This document shows, piece after piece, positions 4,292 to 64,000 of a stretch of DNA of 64,000 nt. This DNA comes from Naegleria gruberi. Lineage: Eukaryota. Every line of letters begins with the position of its first letter. Within the stretch, counting starts at the first letter, position 1. Location of the stretch: the NCBI GenBank assembly GCA_000004985.1, contig GG738872.1. One strand, 5' to 3'. Under the pieces are notes generated by a model. That model made no database searches, had not been told where the DNA came from, and was given only the letters and a program-made list of their open reading frames with translations. The position numbers were made by a program, and so were the translations under genes.

Positions 4292-4449
4292 AATTTATTT
4301 TTTAATATTTTTTTTTTTAATTGTTTGAAAGAATTGAGAATGGAAAAAACGTTATCTTGTCAACTGGATTGGGAAAATGGATTTTATTTTTGAACATTTG
4401 ATGTCTGACGTTTATACACCCGACATGTTGTATTTTCAAAGCAAAAAAA

Positions 4450-8451: not shown

Positions 8452-9533
8452 AATAAAAGATATATATTTTCCAAATAATTCTTAAATCAATTATTCCTCT
8501 TATTGTTTTAATAAAAAGAAGAAGGAATGATGTAAAAAGTATTGCAATATTAACTAGCTAATGGGTATTTCTGGTATACCTCGATCAGCAACGATATATT
8601 GACGACCTATATTCAAATTAATGGTGCGCTGCAGCCTAAAACAATGGAGCAGAGACGGGGACTTGAAATTGTTGAGTAACATCCATCGTAGAATAATTCC
8701 GTTCACGATCAAATTATTTGCAAAATTCTTACGATTATGGTGCTACCATTTTTTTAAAAATATTAATAAAAATAATTATCTAGAAGATATTCAACACAAA
8801 GATTCGTCAACTAATTTACTTCAAGAAATTAGAATATCTTTTAAAAAATCATCTTTTTGACATCATGGTTGACAATAATACCATCATTAAATAAGCGCCT
8901 ATAATAATTGTTTTGGCGCAAATTCCTAATAAGGTCGCTTTGTTTTTGTACAATTCAACAAAAAGAGTCTTATTTTTGTCTTCAACAAAGCACAACATCA
9001 AAGCAAGCTTAACCAAGAGATTCACAAGAACTAATGGAGGCTCTTTGAAAAATAAATCAAAAAAAAACATCAATTTGGTTTTTGCTTGAGACACAACGGT
9101 TCAGAGTTTTATTTAGCCAAATTCCTATCTATCAATAATCTAGAAAATCGATCTGATTATTTTTCGGAATTGTCTTTTACTAGTGATTAGTAATAATAGA
9201 AAGTCTTAAGCTAAAAGCTCCGAAGAGTAAGTAGAGTCATATTTAATGTTTCTGACATTTGGTTCTGTATGAATACAATCTTGATGGTGCACTATGCTAC
9301 TTTTGTGATACTACTGTTTTAAATAACAAATCTGATCATCATTGTTGTATACAAATATATTTGTATTCAATTTAATAATACTGTGGATCACAACTTTTTG
9401 TATTGGACGGATTACTATTCCAATTTTATACAATCACCTTTTATTAATCTACCAACAACACTTCTTACAACAATCACTGTGTATTCTTATACTCATCAAC
9501 ACTCGAAAAAACCAAAACAACAACAACAAAACG

Positions 9534-18500: not shown

Positions 18501-18929
18501 AAGAAGGTTTGGGACTTGTTCGACATTTTGAATCCAATCAACCATGCCAAGACTAAGGAAGATGTTTGGAAATACAAGGTTGAACCATACGTTGTCACTG
18601 CTGATATTTACACATTGATGGATCACGAAGGTGAAGGTGGTTGGAGTTGGTTCACTGGTTCTGGTGGTTGGTTCTATAGATTAATCTTGGAAAGACTCAT
18701 TGGTATCAAGAAGCAAGGTAACTCTCTCAAATTCGATCCATGTCCAAAGGAAGATTGGAAGAAGTATAACATTAATTATCAACATGGCAAGACTGCTTAC
18801 CAAATTCAAGTTACAAGATCTGAAGAAAATGTCATGATTGTTGATGGTGTTAAGAGAGCTGATCCAACTCGTATTCCACTTGTTGATGACGGAAAGACTC
18901 ACAAGGTTGAAATTTATTACAAGTATTAA
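9534..18929 (+). CDS. cgs: cyclic beta-1,2-glucan synthase-like protein (GT84 glycosyltransferase + multi-TM + GH94 glycoside-phosphorylase-like C-terminal domain)
   Basis: Single uninterrupted ORF 9342..18929; the first ATG is at 9534. The GT domain has the motifs HVITLDTDTMLP (DxD, about 11768), GYGLLQPRV (about 11892) and RRHRWIRGDWQ (Q/RxxRW, about 12204). It is flanked by TM clusters at about 11040-11230 and 12290-12960. The C-terminal third is GH94 (cellobiose-phosphorylase-like), with GAFGFRDQLQDT, GCGDWNDGMN (17961-17990) and RENGGQYTHASIW (18429-18467). The domain order matches bacterial Cgs/NdvB/ChvB, which are about 2,800-2,900 aa. Confidence 0.85.
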   Translation: MQPIENMFSGLLDSSNKQNEDSSNEVTSVDSPSKSKKVSGIRRAASIQVGLSDFELSGTNVPNPESISLTHLSKYAITLAGMHEVVEEKKEFVKLIKRLDETASIITQAHDIIYEAIMQNRRITSSDEWLVDNFWMIKEQIHMTKKHLPLGYEKEMPKLNNTKCAGYPRIYGIIWELINLVNGQVTEENIFQFVKSYQSVKPLTIGECWGIGVMLRLGLLENIRRVADGIISRRQDCNLADAWADRLLTSAEKSSRDVVQILYQLSQSEPIITNAFVLQISQRLQGSDPVLSIVNTWLEQQLSIKGIDIDQIFRMQKQANSSNQVTMSYSINSLRLINNFNWKEFVEKLSHMDVILRKDPSGIYSYQNFHTRDRCRHAIERIAKRFKIDEKQVANKALSLAKENHEVLQSCVLGSPRRTRSGSDAEPPSSPGSSPTALSPRSASNVIRNMNPDQMYDMKLIRRKACITYWLLEDEGIKELHRALGFRMSRLPFSFDLRFPSFITSIIFWTCLFAIAYIFMTKHSYQTQFDRYLPFSGVESLKLYFVYEKYLALVLLYISVLFVGSQLAVSLTNMTFVRLKYPASLPSMDFSTTGIPDEHRSIVVVPTMITSSDGINELLSDLQGRYLINRDKNIVFGLITDFGDSKTETTEKDDALVKQVVDGINELNKMYTRTPEEQRYSKTTFFLFHRKRLYNPVEKVFMGWERKRGKLAEFNTFILHGEKGSFSHIIGDTTNLNTVKHVITLDTDTMLPSDAARGLVEIAAHVLNEPVIDNQTKRVTHGYGLLQPRVSNGFTGSTKSLYAYMHSMDSGLDPYTREVSDVYQDTFGEGSFIGKGLYNVETFETVCGEKFPENRILSHDLIEGCFVRSGLTSGIEVIEDYPSSYGVEASRRHRWIRGDWQIASYAFSPFILTAKGYEKNTLSALHRWKIFDNLRRSLVPAAMTYLIMSTALFTSYHSKLPFVAVLAVLSIYLIPTTINTIIDVVKKPEDATWQEHFKRIRFNLLRTFVDIYVELVFTPFEAYNNIDAIIRCLFRLYVSGKGLLEWTTFQSASSIYKTNLFLAMSRLLWFPVLLTTSIIAYIVIQHNTAVAYNEWQTYGFTRRPFMLASNLITIILMFASWILSPFIAYYLSKPLKKNLFERENFNDLTKDDKVFLHVLSRRTWRFFETFVRKEDNYLPLDNYQDFPKPMLARRTSPTNIGLALLANLGGHDFGYITNNECVTRIHNTLSTLSNMDRYKGHFYNWYDTQDLRPLWPKYISAVDSGNLVGHLLILKAGLVELSDNVPIINTDTYVSGLRDNLYSMQFILKEVEKTTDTDEEELVYFDINEIKPMIEDLHTKLDNKPTKISKLIRWYTEIKASSKKLEESLNESLNKLIEASKDDSQADIEWLAEDIEERCEKQLLFYSQSFVHLVSEIAQELNELVPFSKHWDLPEELVSPPSSLAGLLENEAITQFTQQFNKMNIEQLTLRGILGVKEQLGISKVSKVLGSLKVTGSTSNLSSGPKGVEALKRWVTELEESIVNAESEAKKRCNKLKRLINTTDDLIKQDFSFLYNPSRDLLVIGYNVESDRIDQAHYDMFCSEARLISYVGIALGYFPVKHWFSMSRLITTQGTHPALLSWSGSAFEYLLPLNVMPNIPGTLLDSTYHAVVLRQIEYGKQKNIPWGMSESAYNLMDANLVYQYGPFGVPGLGLKRGLSNDLVVAPYATVMSLMVLPKQATKNLRRLNEMNFLGCYGMIESVDFTPHRLRGNIDAQPIKSFFAHHQGMSFLSLLYCLKAQPMQRRFMAVPEFAANVLLLQEKIPTVPHISNPNEKETERWKNVGYNLPCANRQFQGLHTYPEVHMLSNHALHVMLTVNGGGYIKYEDMSVTRWREDATLDGYGVLIYFRDMQDKTDVWSATSTPIKASNDSNYSVTFSQARAEFRRKHKGMTTETIVTVSPLDNVEVRRVKFTNNTNKTKEIEFTSYGEVVLNQGRADAAHRAFSNLFVGTEILHQQNAILFYRKQRDPKDKKVFGFHILFVHEPKNIIAESTFETDRSSFLGRGYTMQRPKALSDDLGPLSNTSGFPLDPIFAIRQCLRIKPGRTVHIDYITGVAFSKEDAISVIKKYQSKKTTNHVVNFAWVASEKLCFRLGITEIEAQLFSKLAGCILYSNPRYRAPPGLITKNKNNQSGLWKFGISGDIPLILVRVCDLEQSFFMQQVLQAHAYCRCKGVKFDLVIWNDETTHYRDLLNQTLHHIMSHIPGSTDLLHQPGGIHPVRGDSLTSFETVLLYSVARVVLSDNGGSLTDQINRTSKKGYVVPPFRVITQPRVIKDTMNTVPKLHERDLILRNDVGGFDAKRKEYVMMLGKNHVTPKPWCNVLANDRFGSVISEKGSAYSFFTNAHEYRLTPFNNDAVLDNSGEAFYIRDESTGQYWSPMPQPVPIDRDDYYYICRHGIGYSTWEHFHDGIHTETTTFVPQNEPVKIILIRVTNNSGFDRNLTVTGFVEWVLGELRELNAPHIITDVERTDNSTAVIARNNFHIQLSHFVGFMSVIGHKEGTITGDRNEFIGSNGTLDRPQAMKQQYLSGNVGAAFDPCAAIQVPITVEDGKVVEVAFMIGANYSRDGAKDVISRIRSNLIVRQLLNSVKAFWHYNLNTIQVETPSPDLDVLANGWLLYQVLSSRIWGRSGFYQSSGAFGFRDQLQDTMAVASVMPQILRQQILTNCEHQFEKGDVCHWWHDITNSGVRTTFSDDYLWLPLAVAHYLEITEDYKLLHERIRFCKLREIEPGEESVYDKLEYTEETESIYEHCKRALKYGFKYGAHGLPLMGCGDWNDGMNLVGIHGKGESVWLAFFLFHVLENFEKNILETEIKDDEFLEECRKNREYIKANIEGQAWDGEWYRRAYFDSGEPLGSKENSECQIDSLPQSWAIISGCVDKKRAKMALTNAYQRLVRHDLKLIQLFDPPLQHQEPSAGYIQGYAPGVRENGGQYTHASIWFAWAYSILKDNKKVWDLFDILNPINHAKTKEDVWKYKVEPYVVTADIYTLMDHEGEGGWSWFTGSGGWFYRLILERLIGIKKQGNSLKFDPCPKEDWKKYNINYQHGKTAYQIQVTRSEENVMIVDGVKRADPTRIPLVDDGKTHKVEIYYKY

Positions 18930-46499: not shown

Positions 46500-49400
46500 T
46501 TAAATAGACAACAATTCCTTCTCATTAAGATTCTTTTGAACATGATTCTTATTTCTACTTCTCTCCTTCAACAAGTAAATTACAGCAATAACAACAGCAA
46601 CCAAAGCAAATACTGGAATGGCCAATAAAATCAATGCAACCAAATTCATATCAGGTTTTGGAGCAATGATAATATTTGATTTGGATGATTCTTTAGGGAT
46701 TGGAGTTACTATTGTTGAAGTTTCTGTTTGAGAAACAAGTTTAACAATGAATGAGCCTGTTGTTCTTGTTTGGATTGTGATTGACTTATCAGATTCTGAT
46801 AGAATTGTGCATTGAGTTGATTGAATATAAGTTCCATTTTGTAATTCGAAACATTTAGCTACTAAACCATGTAAATTTCTGGCAGATGGCAATTTTCCAA
46901 TAGAAATGGATGCAATGGTGTAATTATTGTTGAAACTCATTTGTTGATCATTGTTGAAAATGGAGAATTCAACACTCTTACTGACAGCTGATTTCATTGT
47001 TGTGGATTGAGTCTTGTAATACAACTTGACACTTTCAACTTGATCAAATTCTGGCATGGAAGTGAAATCTTTGGTGAGGTTAAAGCTAGTTGTGGAATCA
47101 ACATTTTCATTCAATCCTTCCAAAGTTGTAATACTGACAAGTCTTGCGTAAACATTCATATTACTTGTGGTGGTCTTAACAGCTGGCATATCAGCAACCA
47201 AATTCTTAATTTGAACATTGACAAGATCACTGAAAATTTGTTCAATTCTTGACATGTCATCCAATGTGAATGTTCTTCTCATTGTTCCAGAAATGTGGCT
47301 TGAGAAGGCATTAGCAGAATTTTGAGAATTTGCAATATCTTGATCATTCATCTTGATTGAGCTAGAAGTTGATGCAGTGGATGTGGTTTCTGAGAATTTA
47401 GAGACAGAGAATGAAACTGTTGAATCTGCCAAATTATTGACACAACCACCAATGGATGAAAGGACAGAAACCTTTGAGGCAACTGAATCAGATGTTTCAG
47501 CAACAACTGAACCTTGTTCATCAGCTTGTTTAAAATACTTATCAACAAAGGCAGTACCAGCAGCTTTCAATGCTTCCTTTTCTTCTGGAGTTGCTGCAGA
47601 GACGGATCCTACAACTGACAGAGCAGATGAAATTGAAGAGACAGTTACTGAACCTTGTTGAGATACAGTAAGTGCAGCAAGGGCTTCTTGTGGTGATGGT
47701 ACGGTGGTAACAATTTGAGTTGTTGTTTCAGAAGATGCACCATTAGCATCATAAACGACAACTTTAATATCCAAAGTTCCTGCTGGAAGTGATGTAGCAA
47801 TTGACTTCTTTTCAGATTTGGAAGATAAAATGCTCCATGTGCTGTCAGTGGTCAACTTGTACAAGAATTCATATGAGAGTGGAACTTGTGGATCGTACCA
47901 ACCGTTACCACACTTAATTTGGAACTCATCTTTCAAAGCAACACCTGTGGTTGGATTGACTTCAAGAATACCAACAGTTGGTGGTGCATTGACTGTGAAA
48001 GTAATATCAGCACTTCCAGATCTATCACCATCAACAATATTCAATGAAACCTTGTTAACTGCTCCAGGAACCAAAAGTGTCTTTGGAATTTGAATATATT
48101 TGAGATTTGTTGTTACAGAGCTGAGATCCAAATCTGAGGAAGACCAAGCGTAGATTCTGGCAGATGAGAGGGAATCTTGATTGGATGCTTGTAATATAAA
48201 GTCAGAGGATGGGTCAACAACTGAGGTGTCGCAACCAGTTGGTGGTACAATAGAAGCTCTAATAATCTTTGATTTTGGTTGTTCAGTGACAGTAATCTTG
48301 ACAGTTGCAGAGGAAGTTCTTGTCAATCCCTTAGAGAATATGGTAGTGAATGAATAGACACCAGCTTCCATTGATCTACTGAATTTGAATTGATCAGCAT
48401 CATCAATAATGGGATCAAAGCAAGGAACAGCTGTAAGCAAATTGACACATGACAAGGAAATTGATCCTGAGGTTTCTGATGGATTACTTGGATCTTGCTT
48501 TTCAACATTGAATGTCACAGGAGTTTCAAAGGATTGAGACATATCTCTAACACTGAATGAAACAATTAATGGCAATGCCTTGGCAGTTACCTTAAACGGA
48601 ACATTGACAGTGGCAGCTCCGCTTTGAGAAACTGTCAAAACAAAGTAATAATCACCTTCAACTGAAATCTTTGTAAAATCATTGCTGAAAACCAACAATT
48701 CCTTATTCTTTTTAACAGTCACGGTTGTGTCCACAGATTTGGCTCTGTCTAAAGAATATTCATAGGACAATGGGCCAGACCCTCCATAACAAGATGGGAA
48801 GGAAACTGTTGGTGAAATAATTGAAGTCTTTCCAATAATCATTGTACTTTCCAAACCTTCCTTAATAGAAACTGTTGGAGATGTCAAATCAGAAATTTGG
48901 AATGAAACAGAAGCTGTTGAATGTTGTTGAGAGAAAGAGCTAGTGACAGTGACTTGAACAGTATAAGAACCAATTCCCAAAGTTTGTCCACTAACCTTAA
49001 TACCAGATCCTGATTGACCAGCAAGTAAAACTTCAAGAGCATCGGCATCGTCAGTTGTTGGAGCGAGAATGGTTGACCAAGTGAAAATTAAACTTCTTCT
49101 ATCCAAAGAAACTGATCCAGAAGCATCCAAGTAAATAGAACCACATGCCTTGGAAACACTGGCCTTGTCAGCTGTCAAAGAAGCAGTTGGAGAAAGAGGA
49201 AGATAATCCTTATTCTTAATACTAACTTGAGTAGTTTCTTGACTTCCAAAGTAATTCTTGAATTGTAAAGTTCCACCAATTGAAATACTTGCAGATGGAC
49301 CTAAAGTAATTTCCATAGAACTCTTTTCAGAATTCAAAAGACATTTGGCACCAACTCCAAGAATTTCATGATTGACAATAAGATCAGAACACATGAATTT

Positions 49401-52400
49401 CTTCTTTAAGGAAGAATAAACAACTCCGTAAATGGAATCACCCAAAGTTGAAAATCCGAAAGAAGTCGAATCTACACTAAAGTCACACTTCTCACCAAAC
49501 CAACCACTTTCACAGCTTTCACATTGAGCACCAGAAGTATGAGCTTGACAAGCACAACTTCCATCCATATTACAACTTCCTCTATTATTACAATTCTTTG
49601 AAGGGGAACATTCGAATTGACAATCTGTACCAACAAATCCAGATTTACACTTGTTACAGAATTCTCCTGCCCAATTACCAGTACAACCACATTTAAATGA
49701 GTTATCACATTTACCATGTCCACTACAAGTCAACTCGTCTGAACAGATTTTTTCAGAACAATCTGAACCAGTAAAGGAAGGAGTGCATTCTGAACAGAAT
49801 TTAGAAGCATCAAATGTGGAACTGGAACAGACACAGGCATTGTGTGAGATACATTTACCTCTACCACCACAGACAAGTGCTGAGGTTCTGTCAATATCAT
49901 TACATTTAAAGTTTTGACATGATGTACCATCAAAACCAGTATTACATTTACAGACAGGAGAGTTGTTTTCGAGTACACATTTACCTTTTCCACTGCAGAC
50001 AGATCCGTCAGTTGCCTTAACACCATTACAAATTGGAATGTCACAGTTTGGACCTGTCATTCCTGTTTTACAAGAGCCACAAGAAGAGCCAGCAAAGTTT
50101 CCAGAGCAAGTACATGTATGAGAATCAGAACAAGAACCACGGAATGAACAACCACCTTCAGATTCCAACTTGCCGTTACAAGTTGACAATTGGCATTCTG
50201 GACCAGTAAATCCATTATTACATTTGCAAGTATTGACACCAACACATTGACCTCTTCCTGAACAAACTAGAGAATGAGAACTATCCTTATCATAACAAAT
50301 TGGTAATTCACATTTTGATCCTGTATAACCCTTTGAACAATCACAATTATCTTGTGATGAACATTTACCCTTTCCTGAACAAACTGATGAGGCAGTATAA
50401 GAAACACCATGACATGTGGTGTCTGATGGAAGGAAGGAGCCAAAGAAACAATTTGTAGTTGTGAAGCTATCACAAAGACCAGTAAATGAATCTGGAATAC
50501 TGGTCAACTCAGTCTTGACAACTTGTTCACAAACGCTCTTACAAACTTGAGTAGAGGTGGCGATTGAGTCACGTTTGGAGCATGATTGGAATTTCATGTA
50601 ACAAACAAATTTGGTCAATGTAGCAATACATTTTTCATCACAAGTTTTTCCTTCCTGTGAATACAAGTTAATGTAATTGTCAAATTGTTCCTTTGCCAAA
50701 GCATCAATTCTAGAAGCAGCTCTAGCAATCAATAATCTAGCATGAGATGCATTTAGAGCTCCACTGTTATAAACAGAATTCAAAACAGTGTAATCAATAC
50801 TAGATTTACAGAATGACAATGCAGTTGATGGAAGAGTGATACAATCAACAGAAGGTGTGTAAATGTCACAATTTTCACCAGAGTATTCACTTGGACAAAC
50901 TTTCTTACAAACACTATTTGAGGAAATGAAATCAGCAGCACATGATGAACATGGGACTTCGCCAAGTTTGGAAATGTATCCCTTATTACATTTACAAACA
51001 GCTTCGGTTGAAACGGCAATGTTAACAAATTGACAAACACCATTACCACATGGTGAAGAACAAGTTGGTACGGCTTCAATACATCTACCTTGTTTGTTTT
51101 CAAAGCCAACTGCACAGCTACATAATTTACCATTTTGAGTAAAACCACTTTCAGAATTACAGACACATTGACCAGTTGTTGCATTAGTCTTGAAACCCTT
51201 CAATCCATCACAAGTACATCCACTTGATCCATCATAAGCATAACCACTTGAAACATCACAGACACACTTGGAACCAGATTGAATAGTCTTGGCAGGACAT
51301 GAACTACATGGTTTGTTTTGATCAATTGTGACAAATCCATTCTTACATTTACAAACAGAGACAGTTGAACTAGCTGTTTCAAATTCACAATTTCCATTCA
51401 AACCACATTCAACATTACATTTTGGTGTGGTATTTCTAACACATTTACCTTGTTCATTCATTGTAAAATCGAGTTCAGAATTACAAACACAAACTCCATC
51501 TGAGAGAATCAATCCAAGAGTGGAATCACAATCAGAACATGGATTTGTCGAATCAGAAGAAACCCATTGGGCTTCACAAATACACTGAGTGAAAGTTGTC
51601 TTGTCGTCACGATATGCACAAACTCCGTGAGATCCACAATTGAATTCACAAACTGCTGGTTTTCTAATACATTGATTACCAGAAGATTGATAATTAGCAG
51701 CAACATTACAGGTACATTCACCATTAGAGAGAACATGACCTGAAGAAGTATTACAAATACATAATGAGTTGACTAAATCAAATCCAGTCTTACAAACTGA
51801 ACATCTGTCACCTTCAAAGTTGTCCTTACAGGTACATGATGCAATACCAGTTGAGTTTTCACAAATTCCATGAACACCACATTGGAGAGTACATGGATTT
51901 GGTGATTTTTCTTGACAAAGATCTCCGAAATAGCCTTCTAAACATTGACATTTGGCAATTCCAGTAACATTGACACAAGATCCACTATTCTTACAATTTA
52001 GAGTACATAGATTTGGTTTTTGAACAATATTTTGACATAATTCACCATTGAAACCAGATGGACAAACACACTTATCATTTTCACAAACACCACCATTCAA
52101 ACAATCAAGTTTACAACCTTGATTAACTGGAACACTACACAAAGGACCAGTATATCCTGAATTACAAATACACTTCTCTTCACCGGTCTTTGTATTGTTA
52201 TAGCAAGTACCATTCACACAACCCAATGAGCAAATAATCTCATTAACACATTGATTTCTGTACAAATCACAGAACTTTGCAGAGCCAGTTGTACAATGAG
52301 CATCACTTTCACAATCTAGTTTACAAATAGCATTTCTACAAGTAGTATAAGGAGTATGTGAAGAACATTCATCATTGGTTGTACAAGAGATGTCAATACA

Positions 52401-55400
52401 TCTTTCCTTATCTAATTGACAAACCTTATTAGCTGCTTGACATGGACGAGTTGAATTACATTCACTTTGACAAGTATTTACAAAGTCACTTGTGTAATCA
52501 GAGACACAGATACCCTTACTACATTGATAATCACCACTACATTCAGTTTGGACACAAACTTTGGACCAACATTGTTTGAATCCCTTCAAGTAACAATCAG
52601 AGTTGACTAAACATGGTTGATTGGTACATCTACCACCTCCATTGCTAACATCACAATATGGCTTATTAGAAGGACACTCAGAATCATACATGCATTCACG
52701 AGTACAGAGTCCCGATTTACATGTTGGTAAAACTGCATAACTGCAACCAGCATTTGATGTACATTTGATTGGGAATTGCACACAAGTCTTTTTAGTTCCA
52801 CTGTAAATGTTAAAATCACAAACATCAGTCAAAACACCATTTTTAACAACACCAATACAATCACGATCAGTATCACATTCAGGAACACATTTAGAATTCT
52901 TACAAGCAGTGTATCCATTTTCAGTACATTCACTTCTTAATTTACAAGATTTTGGTTCACAAGCATTGGATGTAACATTACACACTGGTTTACCAGCAAC
53001 TGAGCTACAATCAGAATCTTTCAAACATTGTGGAACACATCTTTGATAAGTAGCTTGGCCGCTCACTAAATTACATTTAGTTTTACCAAATTTAGAAGCA
53101 CATTGAGAATCACCTAAACATTCAAAGGTACAAACTCCTTGAGAACCACAGAATGAATAACCATTTTCAGAACAATCACCATCAATAGAACATGGTTTAG
53201 GAACACATTTTCCAATATCAACATCACATTTCTTTTTAGAAACAACTCCAACACAATCAGCATCTTTCACACACTCAGGAACACACAATCCCAAAGTAGC
53301 ATCTTGCTTAGTTGAACAGATAGGTCTATTAGTATATTTGGCAGCACAATAAGAATTATATGAACACTCAACGTCACAATATTTTCTGCCTCCCATATTA
53401 GATCCACAAAAAGGGTATCCTTTAATTGTACAATTGGCACTATCAGTACAAAAACGGACAGTACATGTGGCAATTGATGCATCACATGAAGAGGTAATTC
53501 CCTCACAATCGGCATCTTTCTTACAACCTTCAACACATCTATTAAGGGTCATGTCATCCTTCTTGGAACAAGTGTTCAATAATGGATTTGCACTCGATAA
53601 TTGACAGTCATTGTTGGAGCTACATTCATCTTTACAATACTTGTAATATGGATCACACTTGCTATATCCCTTATATGGACAATCAGTGTCATTGGAACAA
53701 ATCTTCTTCTCGCAAACTCCAGTAGGACCACAAACTTTTCTAAAATCTTTAGTACAATCACTGTCAGAGGTACATTCTGGTCTACAATAACAATCTCCAT
53801 TCGTACAGAGACATTCAGTATTTGTGGCATAACGACCGCACGGAGAAATTGCGGGATAACAAGGGACTTTAGAACATTTACCTCCGGAACCATTAGTTAT
53901 ACAAGATGGTCTTCCATAATAACCATTACAATCTGCATCATTGCTACATTCAGCATTACATTTTCTATATTTGGAAGTTTCATTCTTATTGGAACCACAA
54001 ACTGGGAAGTATTGATTCTTACAATCAGAGTTGGAAACACATTCATAACCACAAGTTCCATTTGAAGAACAAATTTGGAAACCCTTAGAAACACAATCAC
54101 TAGTTGTGGTACAATTGACTGCTTGACACAAACCACTTGTCAAATCACAAACTGGTTTGAGTTCATCCAAGCAATCAGAACCACTCTTACATCTCAAAAT
54201 ACAATTCATTCCATCCCATGCATAATCAGGAGCACAAACTGAACAAGTCAATCTGTCACTAGCACAAACTTCACAATTGTTTTTACCACTTTCACATGAT
54301 TCAACACATTTGTGATATTCCTTAGTATTTGAAGAGGACATTCCACAACGACTGTAACCAAAGAGCTTACAATCATCATGAACCATACAATCAACATCAC
54401 AAGTTCCATTTGAATTACAATTTGGATAACCATATGGAGCACAATCAGAAGCAGTATAACAGCTGACACCAACACATCTGAAAACACTAGTGTCACATCT
54501 TGGTTTACCACGAGATAAAATACATCCATCATTATCTAAACATTCCTTATTGTAACAACGTTGATAAGTTTGAGGATCTTTAGAGTTAGTTCCACAACTA
54601 GTTTTACCAAATTTGGTACAATCGCTGTCTACTGAACATTCAATAGAACATCTCTTATACTTGGTTGGATCACTCTTATCATTATTACAGTAAGGGAGAT
54701 TGGCTGGACAATCAGCGTTAGTCAAACATTCGAATGCACAATTTCCATCAAGTCCACATTTAAAGAAACCTTGAGCTTGACAAGATTCATTCGAAGTACA
54801 ACTAGTTCCAATACAATATCCATTAACCAAATCACAATTTGGCATGGTTTCAGTACAATTCAAATTACTGGTACATTTTTTCTTTTCGCATCTAGCTCCA
54901 AAATAGGAATCTGTGCAATTACAAACTTCTCCATTTAAGGTATACAAACATTCGCCACCATTGACACAGGTCAAGGTTGAACATTTCTTCAAATTTTCAC
55001 AGTTAGTTCCTTCATATAACTTGGTACAGTTACAAGCATCTTGTGAAATACATGATCCTCTTCCAGAACAAACATTTCCATTATTGGAAGGTGTTCCATG
55101 ACATTTTGGAATACATTTTTCATAACTGATACAAGAACCTCCATTACAAACAGCTGGATCAGTAGAATTTAATCCACCACAAGTTGGAATTTGGCATTCT
55201 TCTCCAACATATCCAGTTGTACAATTACACAAATTAGGAGAAACACATTTACCATTCAAGGAACAAGCTGAGTTGCCAGTCTTTCCAAAACAGATTGGAA
55301 TAGAACAGTTACTACCAATGTAACCTTCATTACACGTACAAACGTTTCTCTTGTTACAAGCACCATTACCTGAACAAACATTTGAACTAGTACTGTTAAT

Positions 55401-58400
55401 ACCAAAACAAGTAATAAAAGTATTTACACATTTACGGTATTGAGAAGTAACATTACGAACAGAACCACAAGTAGTTTCATAATGCTCGAGAGTTGGACAA
55501 TCTTGATCGACCAAGCATTCATAAGAACAGAAACCATTCAAACAAACTGAAAGTCCATTCGAATAACATTGAGTTTCATTCGAACAAGGAACAGCAGTAC
55601 AACTTTCTTGAACACAAAGTGGTTTTGTAACGTTATAACAATGAGAATTAGTGAGACACTCCTTTCCACATTGTTTGTAAGTGAATCCATTTGAAAATTC
55701 ATGGCAATAGGTCTTATCTTGATATAACAAGGCACAATCATCGTTAGTTTCACATTCGAAACCACAAGTACCATCATCAGAACAATTAGAATAACCAGTA
55801 ATATTCAGAGAGACACAATCAGAACTAGAAGAGCAAACATTTGGAACACAGGTGTTGTTTTGACAAGAAGTTTGATACATTTCATAAATTAATGGATTCA
55901 AACAATCACTATCTAATGCACATTGCTTAATTTCACATCGGTCTCCAGTAAATAAAGAACCACATTTACAATATTCAGTACCGTTTTTGATTCTACAAAT
56001 ACCTCCATTGTCACATGTCTTTGTGCATGGAAGAACTGTTTGACATTGCGTTCCAGTGAAGGATTCACCACATTGACACTTGTCTAAACCGATACATGCA
56101 CCATTTCCGTTACAAGCAGTATCAATTGATTTACCAAAACAGGTAAAAACTTCACAATCAGTTCCAGAGGATCCTGTAAAGCAGCTACATTTTGGATCTT
56201 CAAATTTAGAACTACTTGTCAAACCAGTTCTACAGTAACCATTTCCACTACAAACGCTACTGTCATTTGCTAGCTTTCCAGTACAATTAACTTGACATGC
56301 ACTTAAGGAATTTCCAGCTGTTTTGAAAGAATATCCAGAACAACTAATTGGATAGAGTTCATAAATATTACTTCCCATAGAGTAGAAAACAGATGATGTC
56401 TCTCCAAGAGCAAGAGCTGAAGGTGTGCCTGCTAATGATGAAGCAATTGAGTAAGGAATTGTTGACATTCCAATAGTATATAACATAATGTTCGTACCAG
56501 CGACAATGTAAAGAATACCATTTTTGGTTACTTTCATATATTCAACAGATGATGAAGTGGTGAAACTGTAATCAACTGAATTGTAACCCTTATAGGCAGA
56601 GACAGTTGTTGTGTAGGACACAAATGGTTTTCCATAAATGGCCATTCTACCACCAGGTTTTCCACTAAGAACTCCACCAACAGGACCGTCATTGAAAAGT
56701 GAATCAACATTACCATATTGCACGTCACCTTCTCCTGAAAGACGTCCGGCAACATAAACGACAGTATCATCTTCATTCAATGTTATAGAGCTGGTTCTCC
56801 AAAAACTGAATTTTCCACCTACTCTGCTCTTGGTAACCAAATCATATCTGAAAACGAAACAGGAAGTTGTAGAAAAGTCCTTCCTGACAGAATAATACAT
56901 GTATCTTCCATTCTTACTGATGGCCATATTGTAAAATGTGTAACTGGTTGTTAGAATTAAGGTTTTGGTTCCACTAGCAGTCATTGAAACAATTTCGGTA
57001 TCGAACATTATATAATAAACACCATTGACATATGCCATGTCAACAATGGTGGCACCAGCACTCAATACTTGTTTGGAGGCATAATTGTAGTAACCAGTAT
57101 GAACTGGCCAGTATGTTGGTAAAACTTGACATGTGTTAGGACCTATACATTTCAATCCATCACAAACTGAACCAATATTTGAAGAATTACTCAAGACTCC
57201 ACTGCAGGAGGTAACATCACAATTAGATCCAATCCAACCTTCCTTACATTCACAATTGTTCATTCCGACACATTTACCATTTCCAGAACAAGTATTCGAA
57301 ACTGTTTTAGGAATATTAGAACAACTATAAATATCACAAGCATCACCAAAATATCCACTCTTGCATGAACAATAAGGTTTCATAACATTAGTAATACATG
57401 TACCATTTCCACTACAGACATTGACATCTGATGCTAAAATACCATTACATTGTGGTTGGGAACAATTACTGCCTGTCCATCCTTGAGAACAGGAACAATT
57501 ATTATCAATACAAACACCATGACCAGAACAAACCAAAGTATTTGTACTAAGTAATCCATCACAGGTGTATGTACAAACTTCAGATGAATTAATGTATAAA
57601 CATTTGGCAGTTTCTGAACAGTTAGTATTGACACAAGGTTGTGAAAATTCACAATTACTTCCAGAACGACCAGTGTTACATTTACAATTATTCATTGAGG
57701 TACAAACACCTTCTCCAGAACAAACACCTTGACTAGAAGCTCCAACACCATTACAAGTGTGCTCACAAACATTTGGTCCAATACACTTGACATTAGTACC
57801 GTATTTGGCACATCCCAATGTTGATGTAGCAGAAATTCCAGAACATGTGAAATTGAGACATAATGAACCTTCATAACCATCGAAACAAGAACACTTGTCA
57901 GTTCTGACACAAGTACCATTTCCACTGCAAACACTTGGATTTGATGAGTTTTTACCATAGCAATACTTGAATTCACATTCAGAACCTGTATAACCAGAGA
58001 AACATGAGCAAGCAGAATATAAAGGAGTTGAACTAGTTGACTGTCCAAGTTCTGCATTGAAAACTGTTACAGTTGAGCCAACATTAATTGCACATGATCC
58101 TCCTCCATTACAAACATTAGAATCGGATGATATTAAACCATTACATGTAACATCACATGTTGTTTGATCCACTACAGCATTTTGTGAACATCCAGTGACT
58201 GTAAGCTTTCTTACTACATTACTAGAATCAGTAAAGTAAATATTTCCATATTCATCAAAAGTCATTTCATAAGAGTAAAGTTGAGCAGAAAGAGCTGGAC
58301 CGTTATCACCAGTATTTCCATTGGTACCTATACCTGCAATTGTCAATTCAGTGTTAGGAATATATTTTCTAATTGTATTACCGTAATAGGTAAATACTTC

Positions 58401-61353
58401 TCCTTTTGAATTGAACTTGAAGTAACTATTTTTAAATATGTAGGAAGTAACTGTGGTTGCTGTGGATGGTGTCTTGGTTACATCCCAAGATTTAAGTGTA
58501 TTCGCATTTAGATGATATATTTTACCATTATAGTAATCAATTGTGCCAGAAGTTATAGTTTTATCACATGTCTGAGTTAATGAAGGAGGGACAGTACAAA
58601 AACCTAAATTTGAAGACAGGAAGTAGTATGTGTCAGTTTCAGGGTTGTAGGCCAATGAATACATGGAATAGTAGCTTGTCATTGTTGTCAATTTTGTAGC
58701 TGTTCTACTGGCAAATGAATATCTATAAATATTGTTTGCAAAATCAGTTCCTTTACACATGAAAGCAAGATCTCCATTCTTATCAACAATTAAATTAAGC
58801 ACAGGTTCACAAGAAAGGGTAACAAGTGTGTATATTAAACCATTACTAATGGTTCTAATTCTCTTGTTGTTGCCTTCTGAAACATAAACTGAACCATTCT
58901 TGTAAACGATGCCTTGAACACCATAACCAACAGCAGAAATGGCTGGTTGACCATCTCTTGTATAAGATAAAGTACCTGTTCCCGCAATGTTTGTAACTTC
59001 TTTGGTCAATTGATTGTAGGATTTTACATAATTTCCATTGATGAAAAGGTATTCACCACTCTTATAGGATGGGGTAATAAAAGAACTTCCAGTTGGAATT
59101 GAGAAAATTGTTCTAATGATATTATCCTGGAGGGAAATTGATCGAACATTACCATTAGAATCTGAGAACATGAGACTGCTACCATCTGTTGAAGCATATA
59201 ACGTTGTAATATTTGAACAAGATGCATTAAGGGCTGGACCTTCATCTCCTAGAACTGTAGCTGTTGGATCACAGGCTAATCTTCTTACATAATTACTACC
59301 CCCAGTAGATTCCATTTTGAAAATAACTCCAAAGTTGACAAAGTAAACAGTGTTCATTATTGAGGTAATTAAGGAAGTTGCGCAAATATTAGCATTCAAA
59401 GCTAATTTATCCTGTACAGAACTAATACCACTTCCACAAGTACCAGATCCAACATAAGTTGATACACCATTGGTAGAATCATCAATTTTGAGGATCTTGT
59501 TGCCTTCAGTTACAACAAAAATCAGAGACGAATTTCTATTGGAAGCGATCATTTTGATTGTTGTACCAGAAAGCATGGTTGCATATACTTCACCTGTGGA
59601 AAAACAAGTAGCACAAGCATATTTAACGATGGACTTTGCAGGGTACGCCTTGTAAATGGTGTCTATGGTGGCCACATATGCAAGATTCTTTGAGACTGTT
59701 AAAAATTTACAACTGGAACAGGAGATTGTTTTCAATACGCCTGCTACGATTGGTTTTACATAGTTATCAGAATCGAGAATATAGGTTGCTTCAGGAGTTG
59801 CATAAGCAGCAATAACACCAGTCATTTTCACTGTCAATGGATCGCCAGTGGTTGGTTCACTGGTATATGAGAATGCAACCTTGTCAATTTTGTAATTAAA
59901 CAAGGAACCACCACACTTTCTAAAATCTATACATGTTTCACATTTTGTTCCATTGAAACCTTCATTACAAACACAAGTATTTTCACCCATACATGTTCCT
60001 TTACCAGAACAAACTTTAGCACTGGTTTCAACAATACCAAAACAAGTATTATGTTTTTGTGAACAATTGGATCCATAATGTGGAGAGGTACATTCACAAT
60101 TATCTGTTGCAATACACTTTCCATTACCAGAACAAACATTAGAGTTATTAGAAAGAATGCCATCACATCTATGAACACAAATTTCTACACCTTTAGAATA
60201 AGAACATTCATTACATGCGGAACATGGTCGAGAGAATTCACACTCATCACCAAATCTACCATTGGAACATGAACAATTATTTTCAGCAACACAAACACCT
60301 TCTCCAGAACAAACATTTGGACTAGATGCTCCTACAGCATAACATGTATGTTCACAAACATCTGGACCAATGCACTTAACTTCTGAACCGAATTCACTAC
60401 AAACATCTGGCAATGCTCCAGAAACATTGAAGCATATATAATCTGTACATTGTGGACCAGACCAACCTTCATTACAGGAACAATTATTTGAGGAAATACA
60501 TGTTCCATTTCCTCCACATACAGTTGGATCACTATCTGCCTTATTAAAACAGTGAATAGTTGTACAATCAGAACCATAAAATCCTGAATCACAATTACAT
60601 GTGGTACTAGTATTTGAAGTAATAGCACAAATACCATTACCACCACAAACAGTAGGATCTGATTCAGACAATCCATTACAGGTAATTTCACATGTTGTAC
60701 TATTGACATATGAGTTATCCATACATCCAATAACAGAGAGCTTTCTAACAACATGATTAAATCCTTCACACATGAAAATGTCACCAAATTCATTAAATGC
60801 CAATGATCTAACACCATCAACAAGAGCTTTTGTGGAAGGTCCACCATCACCTGAATAGCCATATGCATCTCCACCAACAAGTGTAAATTTTCCACCATTA
60901 GCATACTTTACAACATCACTAGAAGAATACAGAAACATTTCTCCTCTAGAGTTGAATTGAATACCAGAATAGGAGGATGAAACAATCATAATCTCTTGAG
61001 TTGAGAATGNNNNNNNNNNNNNNNNNNNNNNNNNNNNNNNNNNNNNNNNNNNNNNNNNNNNNNNNNNNNNNNNNNNNNNNNNNNNNNNNNNNNNNNNNNN
61101 NNNNNNNNNNNNNAAGAGTTCCATTTGATCCAATTGACAGAATAGATGGACCATCAGTTACATAGAGAGTCCCATTCTTGTAAACCACACCACCACCCCA
61201 TGCTGTTTTAGTTGTTGCAATGGTTGAAATATTGAACTTGAACATGGTACCACCACATTCGTAATTGTTTTCACACGCTTCTTGTGCTCTTACCTTGCAA
61301 TAGCAAAGTAAGGTTACCAAAGCAAAAAGGAGAAATTGTAGAATCCTTTTCAT
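46500..61353 (-). CDS. giant (>4,900 aa) type-I secreted/TM adhesion-like protein: signal peptide, NHL propeller + tandem EGF modules (x3), long array of novel Cys-rich repeats, laminin/tenascin-type EGF run, REJ/PKD-like Ser/Thr-rich region, single TM, short tail; interrupted by assembly gap
   Basis: ATG at 61353 with signal peptide MKRILQFLLFALVTLLCYCKVRA. A single ORF of 4,884 codons runs from 46500 to 61154, and a 135-codon N-terminal ORF is separated from it only by N(104). NHL motifs (GDIFMCEGFNHVVRKLS) are followed by runs of 8-10 EGF-like units (C.C..G..G..C). A repeat array of about 1,600 aa has the pattern C..[ED]C..[ND].DC. There is a REJ-like stretch (LDASGSVSLDRRSLIFTWS) and a TM helix LVALILLAIPVFALVAVVIAVIYLL at about 46566-46650. 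No intron was detected. Confidence 0.8.
61010..61113. other. assembly gap (104 N)
   Basis: A run of n characters inside the giant gene's N-terminal NHL region. Confidence 0.99.
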
Positions 61354-62367: not shown

Positions 62368-64000
62368 TTACTTTATACTGTTAAAAACAAACTCGATTTC
62401 AGCCATAGTTTTTGAAAGATATTCTTCTTCATATACAACTGTTTGTTTCAGCCTTCCAAAAGCCTCCAGTAAATTAAGTGTTACAATTTGAAAATGGCTT
62501 TGATTATTGGACCCATTTCCAAAGTTAGACAGTGGTGCAAAATGTTGAGGGTACTTTTCACATAGCTCCACATCATCGGATTTGGGATTTTTAGACATGA
62601 GGAGATATAATTCTAATAAATCAGCTCTAAACTCTCTTGTCAGGAACTTTTTCATTATATCAATACAGACCGTTCCATCACTGAAAGTTTTTGAGAGAAA
62701 CAAATCCATTTCTTCTTGTTGCGCCCCAAAATCTCCTACTACTGGTTGCTCTGTTTTGATAAAGGAGTAAACAATGAGAAAAACATTTTGTAGACTAAAC
62801 CCTGTTACCATTAATATTTTGGTGAAGCCATATAAAATATATCCAATGGTGTGGTTTATGTACATTCTGGATACTGGTCTAGTATAATCCAAAGCTGGTA
62901 TTGTGAAATATGAAATGTCTAATTGGGAAACAGCGTAATGAAGAAATGAAAAAAACATAGTTGGAATCAATACCAAGAATTCGACGTGGTACCCAAAAGA
63001 ATCATCATAGAGAAAGAACCATCTTAGAATTCTCCTCTTTTTCTTGAGCTTGCTCAAAAACTTTCTATTAAGGATAAAGTGAGCTATCAGCCCACTTCCT
63101 AACACTGAAAAATACACAACTGCCACAGAGATACAAATAGTGTCATAAATATAATTAACCAAAAATATGTTGGGGATAGAAGTCAATAGAAAACTGACAA
63201 TCACACCTTCACAAAGAATGACTGAAATAATAGAAATTAGAAATATGAATTTGGACATTAATACCTTTAAAATGATACTGTCCCTTTTAGAATAGTATTT
63301 AGCATAACAGTATCTACATGAATAATATCTCAAAGCTTGTAAAATAAGTAAAGATATCACTACAATAATTACAAGTTCTTCAATTAATGTATCCCACTCA
63401 GGGTCATAGTAAATTATATTCAAAATAATACTGGCCACACCCTGAGTAAGATACAATCCAGCACTAATAAATGGAATAATAAATCTACTCTTGATCATTT
63501 GATGATCTCTTTTAGCGAATAAGAGAATTAAAATAATAGAGAATTCGGCAACTCCAATGCATAATGCAGTCAATTTCCAACAATAGTATTGTGTTCTGGA
63601 ATTAAATGTAAAGGCATCACAGTCATCATGCCAATATGTGGAACCATGTTTAGTTGACAAAAGTGGAATATAATAGAACCTGTTACGTATTCAGGTAAAA
63701 AATTTTCTGGTTCAGGTGGAGAATACATGTCCACAAATACGAGATGTAATTGAACATCTGTTGTATCGGCTGGTACTACAATTGGAATTCTCATTTCCAA
63801 ACTTGTTAGGCTTGTTTCGTATTGTCTGTACTGTTGCCTGAGGGGTGTAAATTTCCATTCTGCTTTGGAAAGAAATAAATCTAATTGTTGATTTACAAAT
63901 CCATAAGAACATCCACCATTGAATTTAGCTTCGTTTCTTTTCAAGCAGAAGGCTTTTGGAAGTATTTCAAAATCCAAATCTCCAAACCTTTGATAATAAC
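62368..64000 (-). CDS. 7TM receptor with C-terminal RGS-like domain (7TM-RGS), N-terminal ectodomain; 5' end outside window; apparent frameshift near 63660-63706
   Basis: ORF 62368..63660 has seven hydrophobic helices followed by EEMDLFLSKTFSDGTVCIDIMKKFLTREFRADLLELYLLMSKNPKS.., which resembles an RGS box. The upstream ORF (63570..window end) is an N-terminal ectodomain, open to the window edge. The two frames overlap by about 90 nt with no phase-compatible GT..AG. Confidence 0.5.

What the first reader, a model, noticed from the sequence alone, without database searches (positions are those of the whole stretch)
46500..61353. About 14.8-kb intronless gene for a >4,900-aa modular extracellular protein (NHL-EGF units, novel Cys-rich repeat array, REJ-like region, TM)
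This is one of the largest possible single-exon CDSs. It combines a signal peptide, three NHL-propeller/EGF-run units, roughly 35 copies of a Cys-rich repeat, a tenascin/laminin-type EGF run, a Ser/Thr-rich REJ/PKD-like segment, a single TM and a 22-aa cytosolic tail. The architecture resembles metazoan adhesion and polycystin/teneurin-like receptors but in a protist. The modules look shuffled. It may be a surface adhesin or cell-recognition receptor.
Basis: partly seen in the sequence, partly recalled or inferred. Interest (0 to 1): 0.6.

Follow-up and report, generated by a model that had tools for sequence, protein, structure and literature searches.

The report
Giant Naegleria surface receptor gene
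This is one unbroken 14.8-kb gene of the amoeba Naegleria gruberi for a roughly 4,900-residue, single-pass cell-surface protein built mostly of known extracellular modules; the public annotation cuts it down to 1,706 residues and so hides an undescribed cysteine-rich repeat array.

Summary
On the minus strand, an ATG at 61353 with a signal peptide leads into a 104-N assembly gap. After the gap comes a stop-free frame of 4,835 codons ending at 46500 (chance about 1e-155). The window is Naegleria gruberi NEG-M. Pfam confirms about 40 teneurin-type EGF modules and a REJ domain (E 2.7e-38). A blade profile confirms NHL propellers in two of the three claimed units; the third matches no family. There is one TM helix and a 22-residue tail. 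The cysteine-rich array is real: 36-37 four-Cys modules arranged as A-B-C triads. It has no Pfam or NCBIfam hit and no PDB fold match. Its only full-triad relative is a paralogous N. gruberi locus. Module-level relatives are Myxococcota lipoproteins with TraA-type Cys repeats. The deposited model (1,706 aa, partial) removes three in-frame, stop-free "introns" whose codon bias equals that of its exons, and it omits the N-terminal 1,146 residues. The protein belongs to a heterolobosean family of EGF/REJ surface receptors. Some relatives carry GPS-7TM-RGS, whereas this one has no detectable GPS motif. The most likely role is an adhesion or recognition receptor on a rigid disulfide-rich stalk, but the function is inferred. 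Interest is moderate.

The parts
61285..61353 (-). Start codon and predicted signal peptide (MKRILQFLLFALVTLLCYCKVRA, VRA|QE cleavage site)
   Evidence: Read from the sequence. There is an in-frame TGA eight codons upstream. The h-region has mean Kyte-Doolittle 2.4. No signal-peptide predictor was available.
61114..61284 (-). N-terminal part of the first NHL-type propeller, before the gap
   Evidence: VVYKNGTLYVTDG matches main 699-712 of unit 2. The blade profile gives a weak hit.
61010..61113 (.). Assembly gap (104 N). It shifts the apparent frame, and its true length is unknown.
   Evidence: If unit 1 is colinear with unit 2, about 120 aa are missing rather than 35. This is an inference.
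60714..61007 (-). C-terminal NHL blades of unit 1 (main 1-98)
   Evidence: 38% identical to main 864-943. The blade profile hits teneurin and PknD NHL structures.
59916..60713 (-). EGF run 1 (main 99-364), teneurin-type EGF modules
   Evidence: Pfam EGF_2 E 1.3e-20 and EGF_Teneurin E 6.5e-20.
58188..59915 (-). Unit 2 (main 365-940), an NHL beta-propeller region long enough for two propellers
   Evidence: Four strong blade matches. The 640-940 half hits bacterial NHL proteins strongly, and the 365-660 half hits them weakly. Pfam NHL reaches only E 0.097.
57123..58187 (-). EGF run 2 (main 941-1295)
   Evidence: Pfam EGF_Teneurin E 1.8e-24 and EGF_TEN E 1.5e-17.
56340..57122 (-). Unit 3 (main 1296-1556): a Cys-poor, beta-rich domain of no recognised family. 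By eye it has a six-fold propeller-like pattern.
   Evidence: No Pfam hit at E<=10. There is no meaningful PDB sequence hit and no hit among 196 fetched relatives. The NHL blade profile scores it no better than control regions.
55923..56339 (-). EGF run 3 (main 1557-1695)
   Evidence: Pfam EGF_TEN and EGF_Teneurin on segment 5. EGF signature motifs at 1644 and 1680.
55419..55922 (-). Cys-rich array, block 1: two A-B-C triads, six four-Cys modules (main 1696-1863)
   Evidence: alignment A1.
54876..55418 (-). EGF run 4 (main 1864-2044)
   Evidence: Pfam EGF_TEN E 5.3e-18.
52242..54875 (-). Cys-rich array, block 2: about 31 four-Cys modules in about 10 triads (main 2045-2922), with a furin-like CxxC insert at 54192-54296
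51900..52241 (-). EGF run 5 (main 2923-3036)
   Evidence: Pfam EGF_TEN E 6.6e-15 and EGF_2 E 1.6e-8.
50898..51899 (-). Repeated EGF plus DUF5874-like Cys modules (main 3037-3370)
   Evidence: Pfam DUF5874 E 1.4e-9, three stretches. Conserved in paralogue P0006.
50418..50897 (-). Ten-Cys domain, weakly Frizzled-CRD-like (main 3371-3530)
   Evidence: Pfam Fz E 0.0098, 16.9 bits, below the 32.1-bit cut-off. A profile built with the paralogue finds nothing in the PDB. Treated as unassigned.
49482..50417 (-). EGF run 6 (main 3531-3842), teneurin-type with laminin-type EGF at its end
   Evidence: Pfam EGF_2 E 9.8e-25, EGF_TEN E 1.8e-22, and weak EGF_laminin at E 0.0011.
47694..49481 (-). REJ module (main 3843-4438). 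The Pfam REJ match itself covers main 4210-4452, which is window 47652-48380.
   Evidence: Pfam PF02010 E 2.7e-38. Conserved in P0006, P0007, P0176 and P0109.
47193..47693 (-). Helical bundle after REJ (main 4439-4605), in the position of GAIN subdomain A
46713..47192 (-). Juxtamembrane beta-rich region with one Cys pair (C4719, C4733), in the place where relatives carry a GPS motif
   Evidence: Relatives P0100 and P0131 have Pfam GPS here (E 1.5e-8 and 2.9e-7), but the window protein has none. hhalign is not significant. The model has low confidence in this region.
46569..46643 (-). Single transmembrane helix (LVALILLAIPVFALVAVVIAVIYLL)
   Evidence: It is the only 19-mer stretch in the protein with mean Kyte-Doolittle above 2.
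46500..46568 (-). 22-residue cytosolic tail (KERSRNKNHVQKNLNEKELLSI) and the stop codon

Best explanation
The region is one gene of Naegleria gruberi. It encodes a type I membrane glycoprotein of at least 4,915 residues, about 0.5 MDa.

Domain order, from outside to membrane:
- signal peptide;
- NHL beta-propeller heads alternating with runs of teneurin-type EGF modules;
- an unassigned beta-rich domain;
- an array of 36-37 four-Cys modules in A-B-C triads, interrupted once by EGFs;
- further EGF/DUF5874 modules;
- a ten-Cys domain;
- a last EGF run;
- a REJ module;
- a helical plus beta juxtamembrane region;
- one TM helix and a 22-residue tail.

Most likely mechanism (inferred):
- It is a cell-surface adhesion or recognition receptor.
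- The propellers and the ten-Cys domain bind ligands on substrate, prey or other cells.
- About 80 disulfide-stapled small modules form a long, stiff stalk that holds those heads far from the membrane, as has been proposed for the Cys-rich repeats of myxobacterial TraA.
- The REJ/juxtamembrane module anchors the stalk and bears load.
- No GPS motif is detectable, so self-cleavage is not predicted.
- The tail is too short to signal on its own, so any signalling would need a membrane partner.

The deposited 1,706-residue model is an annotation artefact.
For: Shown:
- The frame is continuous, at about 1e-155 by chance.
- The frame-0 codon-bias score is the same in the deposited model's 'introns' (0.24-0.31), in its exons (0.19-0.40) and in neighbouring genes (0.16-0.51).
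- Those 'introns' are 1,818, 2,757 and 1,167 nt long. All are multiples of 3 and stop-free, and they encode well-formed domains.
- Paralogue P0008 is colinear with the array at 34% identity, E 5e-38. It lies on a contig of the same length (13,492 bp) as the one carrying the C-terminal paralogue P0006, most likely the same contig.
- Domains are confirmed by Pfam and by the NHL blade profile against the PDB (E 1.2e-35 to a teneurin-like protein; also teneurin-2 and PknD).
- There is one TM helix, 447 Cys and 60 N-glycosylation sequons.
- Relatives form a large heterolobosean family of EGF-rich surface proteins with REJ or GPS-7TM-RGS ends.
- N. fowleri 7TM-RGS proteins with EGF, lectin and GPS modules have been likened to adhesion GPCRs (PMC9283941).

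Inferred:
- The stalk role rests on analogy with TraA Cys repeats (PMC3325183).
- The link to TraA is transitive: triad profile to P0009 (E 4.9e-22), then P0009 to the TraA repeat region (E 3.7e-19).
Against: - No transcript, protein or localisation data were available, so single-transcript status and surface location remain predictions.
- The assembly gap leaves the join between the signal-peptide exon and the rest formally unproven.
- The public annotation models the locus differently.
- No ligand-binding specificity can be read from the NHL or EGF modules.
- One family member (P0176) is labelled 'basal body protein NBP family' in the database. If that label is meaningful, it points away from a simple adhesin role.
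Confidence: 0.6

Rival explanations
1. The deposited annotation is right. The locus gives a much shorter protein (about 1,700 aa) after removal of three long introns, or the ORF is really two or more separate genes.
For: GenBank model P0005 (1,706 aa, partial) uses GT..AG-compatible junctions. No model covers the first 1,146 residues.
Against: - The three 'introns' are all in frame and stop-free. They have the same codon bias as the exons and encode conserved Cys frameworks, EGF modules and a beta-rich domain.
- A paralogue conserves the array as protein.
- The model has neither a start nor a stop codon, and its length closely matches the 1,705-aa paralogue model. This fits, but does not prove, a homology-guided artefact.
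Confidence: 0.07
2. It is mainly a structural matrix or cyst-wall component. The giant Cys-rich ectodomain is shed from its anchor and cross-linked outside the cell.
For: The protein is 9.2% Cys and rich in glycosylation sites. Cys-rich repeat proteins are typical of extracellular matrices (PMC3325183). The REJ/juxtamembrane region sits where relatives have a self-cleaving GPS.
Against: The TM anchor is retained, as it is in two paralogues. No GPS motif is detectable in the juxtamembrane region. No chitin- or cellulose-binding module was found.
Confidence: 0.15
3. It is a flagellar or basal-body-associated surface protein, analogous to EGF-rich mastigoneme proteins or polycystin-type ciliary receptors.
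For: P0176 shares the 945-residue C-terminal module (26% identity, E 2e-40) and is named 'basal body protein NBP family'. REJ is the hallmark of ciliary polycystin-1. There is a weak EGF hit to a tubular mastigoneme protein.
Against: The database name has no traceable source. The mastigoneme hit is generic EGF similarity (E 0.039). Nothing in the sequence is cilium-specific.
Confidence: 0.08
4. It is a decaying pseudogene or an assembly chimera.
For: There is an assembly gap near the 5' end with an apparent frame shift.
Against: There are 4,835 stop-free codons with uniform coding bias. Both flanks of the gap are NHL-type and match the same unit-2 template. No long near-identical repeats are present that could mislead an assembler.
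Confidence: 0.03

Closest known systems
Heterolobosean EGF/REJ surface proteins, including Naegleria 7TM-RGS 'adhesion-GPCR-like' receptors (e.g. N. lovaniensis P0100; N. fowleri 7TM RGS1-4, PMC9283941)
   Same: They share long runs of teneurin-type EGF modules, variable ligand-binding heads (NHL in several) and a REJ domain next to the membrane. They come from the same organisms.
   Different: Those receptors have a Pfam-detectable GPS motif, seven TM helices and an RGS domain. This protein has one TM, a 22-aa tail and no GPS. It is 2.5 times longer and carries the Cys-rich triad array.
Polycystin-1 / PKDREJ / sea-urchin REJ family
   Same: Both have a REJ domain (E 2.7e-38) close to the membrane at the base of a very large modular ectodomain, followed by a helical plus beta region where the GAIN domain sits in PKD1.
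   Different: This protein has no GPS motif, no PLAT domain, no 11-TM or channel-like region, and a single-pass topology.
Teneurins and bacterial teneurin-like proteins
   Same: Both have NHL beta-propeller blades (profile E 1.2e-35 to 9ifo and 4e-7 to teneurin-2) and EGF modules that Pfam classifies as teneurin-type.
   Different: Teneurins are type II proteins with the order EGF -> NHL -> YD shell -> toxin domain. Here the orientation is type I, the propellers are N-terminal and interleaved with EGFs, and no YD or Tox-GHH domain is found.
Myxobacterial Cys-rich repeats (TIGR04201) of TraA and Myxococcota lipoproteins
   Same: Both have tandem modules of about 25 aa with the pattern C-x3-[DS]-[DE]-C-x6-8-C-x5-7-C. 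The triad profile finds Myxococcota proteins at E 1e-16 to 1e-19. A stalk function has been proposed for the TraA repeats.
   Different: The window array itself does not reach TIGR04201 or TraA at E<=0.1. It is organised as three-module triads seen in full only in N. gruberi. There is no PA14 domain and no MYXO-CTERM tag.

Membership tests
Polycystin-1 / PKDREJ family | REJ domain | tested here: met
   Pfam PF02010, E 2.7e-38, 132 bits against a 25-bit cut-off.
Polycystin-1 / PKDREJ family | GPS motif within a GAIN domain next to the first TM | tested here: not met
   - No Pfam GPS or GAIN hit at E<=10, whereas relatives P0100 and P0131 score E 1.5e-8 and 2.9e-7.
- Only the first Cys pair is present.
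- By hand alignment, TTG stands where the GPS consensus has HL/T.
- The fold evidence is inconclusive.
Polycystin-1 / PKDREJ family | PLAT domain and multi-pass (11-TM) C-terminal region | tested here: not met
   There is one hydrophobic segment, followed by 22 residues and the stop codon.
Adhesion-GPCR-like 7TM-RGS receptors of Naegleria | Seven TM helices and a C-terminal RGS domain | tested here: not met
   Single TM. No RGS hit.
Adhesion-GPCR-like 7TM-RGS receptors of Naegleria | Extracellular EGF arrays with lectin or propeller heads | tested here: met
Teneurin | NHL propeller plus teneurin-type EGF repeats | tested here: met
   Pfam EGF_Teneurin and EGF_TEN. Blade profile against teneurin structures.
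Teneurin | Type II topology, YD-repeat shell, C-terminal toxin-like domain | tested here: not met
   The signal peptide is N-terminal and the TM is C-terminal. No YD/RHS or Tox-GHH hit in Pfam.
NHL-repeat beta-propeller | Blades matching the NHL signature (G-x-G-x-x-G-D-G-G-P-A ... G-x-l-y-v-a-D ... n-x-I-R) | tested here: met
   Units 1 and 2 match: PDB profile hits to teneurin, PknD, Pizza, TRIM/Thin and SOQ1, and hits to bacterial NHL proteins. Unit 3 (main 1296-1556) does not match.
TIGR04201 Myxo_Cys_RPT / TraA | Match to the curated repeat model | tested here: not met
   The window array gives no NCBIfam hit at E<=0.1. Only its distant relatives P0009, P0010, P0012 and P0013 give weak or sub-threshold hits.
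TIGR04201 Myxo_Cys_RPT / TraA | PA14 head and MYXO-CTERM sorting tag | tested here: not met
   No PA14 hit in Pfam. The C-terminus is a eukaryotic-style TM plus tail.
Frizzled cysteine-rich domain | Match to the Fz model, with ten conserved Cys in Fz spacing | tested here: inconclusive
   Ten Cys are present with roughly Fz-like spacing by inspection. Pfam Fz gives 16.9 bits against a 32.1-bit cut-off. The paralogue gives no hit. A profile search finds nothing in the PDB.
Dictyostelium Cys-rich repeat (Pfam PF00526) | Match to the model | tested here: not met
   No hit at E<=10 on the array.

The most novel reading that the evidence does not exclude
The A-B-C triad array would be a previously undescribed disulfide-rich repeat fold: each module a short helical turn plus a beta-hairpin, with no counterpart in the PDB. 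It would be the eukaryotic branch of the stalk repeat that myxobacteria use in surface lipoproteins and in the kin-recognition receptor TraA. That would imply exchange of a cell-surface stalk module between predatory soil bacteria and a bacterivorous amoeba. The array would be embedded in what would be among the longest single-exon proteins known in a protist.
Probability: 0.2. Interest if true: 0.55.

Novelty: new variant of a known kind. Interest (0 to 1): 0.4.

Why it matters
- **Annotation.** The finding corrects a substantial error. About two thirds of a 4,900-residue protein, including an entire repeat family, is missing from public protein databases, so it is invisible to homology searches.
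- **Evolution of receptor modules.** It adds a single-pass member without a detectable GPS motif to the Naegleria family of REJ/EGF receptors. This bears on how REJ, GPS and 7TM modules were combined outside animals.
- **A new repeat to define.** It provides a defined alignment and a confident model (pLDDT 82) for a new Cys-rich repeat that could be turned into a family model.
- **Limits.** It does not open a long-standing question. Giant shuffled EGF-rich surface proteins are common in protists.

Tried and rejected
- **Iterated blade HMM.** Iterating the NHL blade HMM on the protein drifted into the EGF runs. That run was discarded, and only the un-iterated profile was used.
- **Frizzled CRD.** The Pfam hit is below threshold and the PDB profile search found nothing, so this was not adopted.
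- **GAIN/GPS homology.**
  - The AF2 model of main 4430-4800 is confident only in its helical half.
  - Foldseek ranks BAI3, CELSR1, BAI2 and CD97 GAIN structures near the top, but at E>=1.9e-3 and TM about 0.23.
  - hhalign against GPS-bearing relatives has negligible probability.
  - An HMM of the region finds only its own members.
  - The question is left as inconclusive.
- **Paralogous loci.** Fetching their DNA failed, because P0006, P0007 and P0008 are not on record.
- **afdb50.** This fold library was unavailable.
- **Literature.** Searches for Naegleria REJ, polycystin or NBP found nothing specific.
- **PDB sequence searches.** The C-terminal region gave only generic EGF hits.
- **Repeat collapse.** Rejected, because the DNA repeats are short and only 60-80% identical.

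Full report
**Source and coordinates.** Three neighbouring ORFs are identical to Naegleria gruberi NEG-M proteins EFC43583, EFC43585 and EFC43587, which lie on a 413,107-bp scaffold. The window is therefore N. gruberi, a heterolobosean amoeboflagellate.

- On the minus strand, the ORF listing reports an ORF at 46500..61154.
- The DNA shows an ATG at 61353 with an in-frame TGA eight codons upstream. A typical signal peptide follows (MKRILQFLLFALVTLLCYCKVRA|QE), then 57 further residues.
- A run of 104 N lies at 61010-61113. Its length is not a multiple of three, which explains the apparent frame change.
- After the gap, 4,835 codons run without a stop from 61007 to 46503.
- At this composition a stop is expected every 14 codons, so the chance of such a frame is about 1e-155.
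- Positions below are given as 'main', counted from the first residue after the gap.

**One gene or several?** The public model for this locus is P0005, 'predicted protein, partial', 1,706 aa.

- It corresponds to main 1147-1280 + 1887-2045 + 2965-2981 + 3371-4765. It has neither a start nor a stop codon.
- It removes three 'introns' of 1,818, 2,757 and 1,167 nt. All three are in frame and free of stops.
- A codon-usage score trained on other genes of the window is the same in these 'introns' (0.24-0.31 in frame 0, negative in frames 1 and 2) as in the model's exons (0.19-0.40) and in neighbouring genes (0.16-0.51).
- The 'introns' encode well-formed EGF modules, a beta-rich domain and the whole Cys-rich array.
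- The first 1,146 residues have no identical match in the protein database, so they are unannotated. The Cys-rich array finds nothing at all there.
- The model's length closely matches that of paralogue P0006 (1,705 aa). I read the model as a homology-guided artefact and the full ORF as the gene. This is an inference, since no transcript data could be consulted.
- DNA-level repeats inside the ORF are short (35-81 nt) and 60-80% identical, so repeat collapse is unlikely. The only assembly uncertainty is the gap.
- Both flanks of the gap are NHL-type and match the same template in unit 2: pre-gap residues 55-68 of the N-terminal segment (numbered from the initiator Met, not 'main') to main 699-712, and main 17-98 to main 864-943. 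If the two units are colinear, about 120 residues are missing rather than 35. This too is an inference.

**Domain anatomy**.

- *EGF runs.* Pfam places EGF_2, EGF_Teneurin and EGF_TEN runs at main 99-364, 941-1295, 1557-1695, 1864-2044, 2923-3036 and 3531-3842. That is about 40 EGF modules in all. The last run ends in weak laminin-type EGFs.
- *DUF5874.* Main 3037-3370 repeats an EGF plus a DUF5874-like unit (E 1.4e-9).
- *REJ.* A REJ domain is clear (E 2.7e-38, main 4210-4452). It lies within a paralogue-conserved module spanning 3843-4438.
- *Membrane anchor.* There is exactly one hydrophobic helix (main 4789-4813), followed by 22 residues.
- *Composition.* The protein has 447 Cys (9.2%) and 60 N-x-S/T sequons.

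**NHL claim.**

- Pfam NHL reaches only E 0.097.
- A profile of five blades from units 1 and 2 hits solved NHL propellers specifically. These include a bacterial teneurin-like protein (E 1.2e-35, six blades), teneurin-2 (4e-7), PknD, the PknD-derived 'Pizza' designs, Thin/TRIM NHL domains and SOQ1.
- Main 640-940 also matches many bacterial NHL proteins, and main 365-660 matches them weakly.
- Unit 3 (main 1296-1556) is different. It has no Pfam hit at E<=10 and no meaningful PDB hit. It matches none of the 196 fetched relatives, and the blade profile scores it no better than control regions. By eye it has six strand-turn-strand repeats, but that is not a test.
- Two NHL units are therefore confirmed and the third is unassigned.

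**The Cys-rich array.**

- Splitting at C-x5-C gives 6 modules at main 1696-1863 and about 31 at 2045-2922.
- The modules fall into three types that recur in the order A-B-C. Eleven triads align over 81 columns with ten invariant Cys. The consensus is CxxDSDCxxxxxPxCDxxxxxCxxxxCxxxxDCxxxGYxxCxxNGxCxxECxxxxDCxxxxxxxxCxxxxxxxxYxxC.
- A furin-like CxxC segment (main 2238-2272) interrupts the array.
- Neither Pfam nor NCBIfam matches the array.
- An exhaustive profile search of 1.84 billion representative proteins found only 65 hits at E<1e-3.
- The best hit, P0008 (E 3e-26), is N. gruberi EFC35886. It lies on a 13,492-bp contig, the same length as the contig carrying the C-terminal paralogue P0006 and most likely the same one.
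- P0008 is colinear with main 2013-2268, including the preceding EGF and the furin-like segment (34% identity, E 5e-38). A second locus therefore conserves the array as protein.
- The remaining hits match at the level of single modules. They are metagenomic proteins, several with lipoprotein signal peptides. One sits on a bacterial contig beside an FHA-sigma54 activator. Its relatives are in Kofleriaceae, Myxococcales and Myxococcota MAGs.
- Some of these hits weakly match TIGR04201, the Cys-rich repeat of Myxococcus TraA. P0009 matches the TraA repeat region at E 3.7e-19.
- The authors who defined TIGR04201 proposed that these repeats form a rigid stalk presenting the PA14 head (PMC3325183).
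- The array is thus a repeat family absent from the curated libraries. It is distantly tied to the myxobacterial repeats, and its triad super-repeat has been seen so far only in N. gruberi.

**Juxtamembrane region.**

- After REJ, the AF2 model built on a three-sequence alignment shows seven helices (main 4439-4605, pLDDT about 70-90) and a poorly modelled beta region.
- The N. lovaniensis relatives P0100 and P0131 carry, after REJ and just before the membrane, a Pfam-detectable GPS motif (E 1.5e-8 and 2.9e-7). In P0100 this is followed by a multi-pass region and an RGS domain.
- At the same place, the window protein and its closest paralogues keep only the first Cys pair. By hand alignment they read T-T-G-S-F where the GPS consensus has H-L/T-x-F. 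Pfam finds nothing there, and a profile-profile comparison is not significant.
- I conclude that a GAIN-like fold is possible but unproven. No GPS motif is detectable, so I do not predict GPS-type self-cleavage.

**Other regions.** A ten-Cys domain at main 3371-3530 gives a sub-threshold Fz hit (16.9 bits against a 32.1-bit cut-off). Nothing else supports it, so it remains unassigned.

**Family context.**

- The N-terminal third finds 270 relatives. They are led by N. lovaniensis, Acrasis kona, N. gruberi and N. fowleri proteins of 1,000-2,000 aa. These combine the same EGF arrays with NHL, RCC1, jacalin or other heads, and with REJ or GPS/RGS ends.
- The C-terminal 950 residues are shared with P0006 (50% identity), P0007 (42%) and P0176 (26%, E 2e-40). 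P0176 is labelled 'basal body protein NBP family', and no source for that name could be found.
- N. fowleri is reported to encode 28 7TM-RGS proteins. Several have EGF, lectin and GPS modules 'reminiscent of the adhesion GPCRs' (PMC9283941).
- The present gene is the largest member seen here, and a single-pass one, of this module-shuffling family.

**Function.** Nothing here tests function.

- The best-supported reading is a surface adhesion or recognition receptor. Ligand-binding propellers sit at the far end of a long, stiff, glycosylated stalk of about 80 small disulfide-rich modules. The stalk is anchored through a REJ module and one helix.
- The 22-residue tail is not conserved among paralogues, so any signalling would need a partner.
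- The rivals are a shed matrix or cyst-wall component, a flagellum-associated protein, the deposited short model, and a pseudogene or chimera. They are listed with their tests in the rival explanations.

**Verdict.** The finding is a new variant within a known kind, namely modular protist surface receptors. It brings a useful annotation correction and an undescribed repeat family, and its interest is moderate.

Noticed in passing
window 9342-18929 (+): A 3,195-aa ORF with a glucoamylase-like domain, two GH94 supersandwich matches (E 1.5e-151) and a GH94 catalytic domain (E 6.8e-106). This architecture resembles bacterial cyclic beta-1,2-glucan synthases, which is unusual for a eukaryote, so it may be an acquired gene.
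   Followed up: no
window 1369-2337 (-) and 225-1262 (-): ORF 1369-2337 has clear NHL repeats (Pfam E 7.8e-16; TEN_NHL 1.9e-9). The adjacent ORF 225-1262 has no Pfam hit. Neither shows BLAST similarity to the giant protein at E<1e-3, so they share the NHL family but not a recent module.
   Followed up: partly
window 46713-57569 (deposited model P0005): The GenBank model for this locus is partial at both ends and splices out 5,742 nt of in-frame coding sequence. The paralogous locus looks fragmented in the same way, into P0008 (array piece) and P0006 (C-terminal piece), both on contigs of 13,492 bp and most likely the same contig.
   Followed up: yes
window 54192-54296 (-), main 2238-2272: A furin-like CxxC segment (CESGKNNCEVCASDRLTCSVCAPDYAWDGMNC) interrupts the four-Cys array. 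It is conserved at the same place in paralogue P0008.
   Followed up: partly
P0100 and P0131 (N. lovaniensis proteins): Both relatives combine teneurin-type EGF arrays, a REJ domain and a canonical GPS motif. P0100 additionally has a multi-pass region and a weak RGS hit (E 0.0095). This couples REJ to an adhesion-GPCR-like core in a heterolobosean.
   Followed up: partly
L001 6001-8547 and loci L003-L008: Myxococcota (Kofleriaceae/Myxococcales MAG) lipoproteins of 700-850 aa are made almost entirely of CxxDxDC-type four-Cys modules. In L001 the gene sits in a run of same-strand ORFs without Pfam hits, followed by an FHA-sigma54 activator. None has a Pfam hit.
   Followed up: partly
window 61010-61113: The 104-N gap probably understates the missing sequence. 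Colinearity of unit 1 with unit 2 suggests that about 120 residues of NHL propeller are absent (inference).
   Followed up: partly
window 62368-63660 (-): A 430-aa ORF lies on the same strand just upstream of the giant gene and has no Pfam hit. About 1 kb of AT-rich spacer separates it from the giant gene's start, and I treated it as a separate gene.
   Followed up: no
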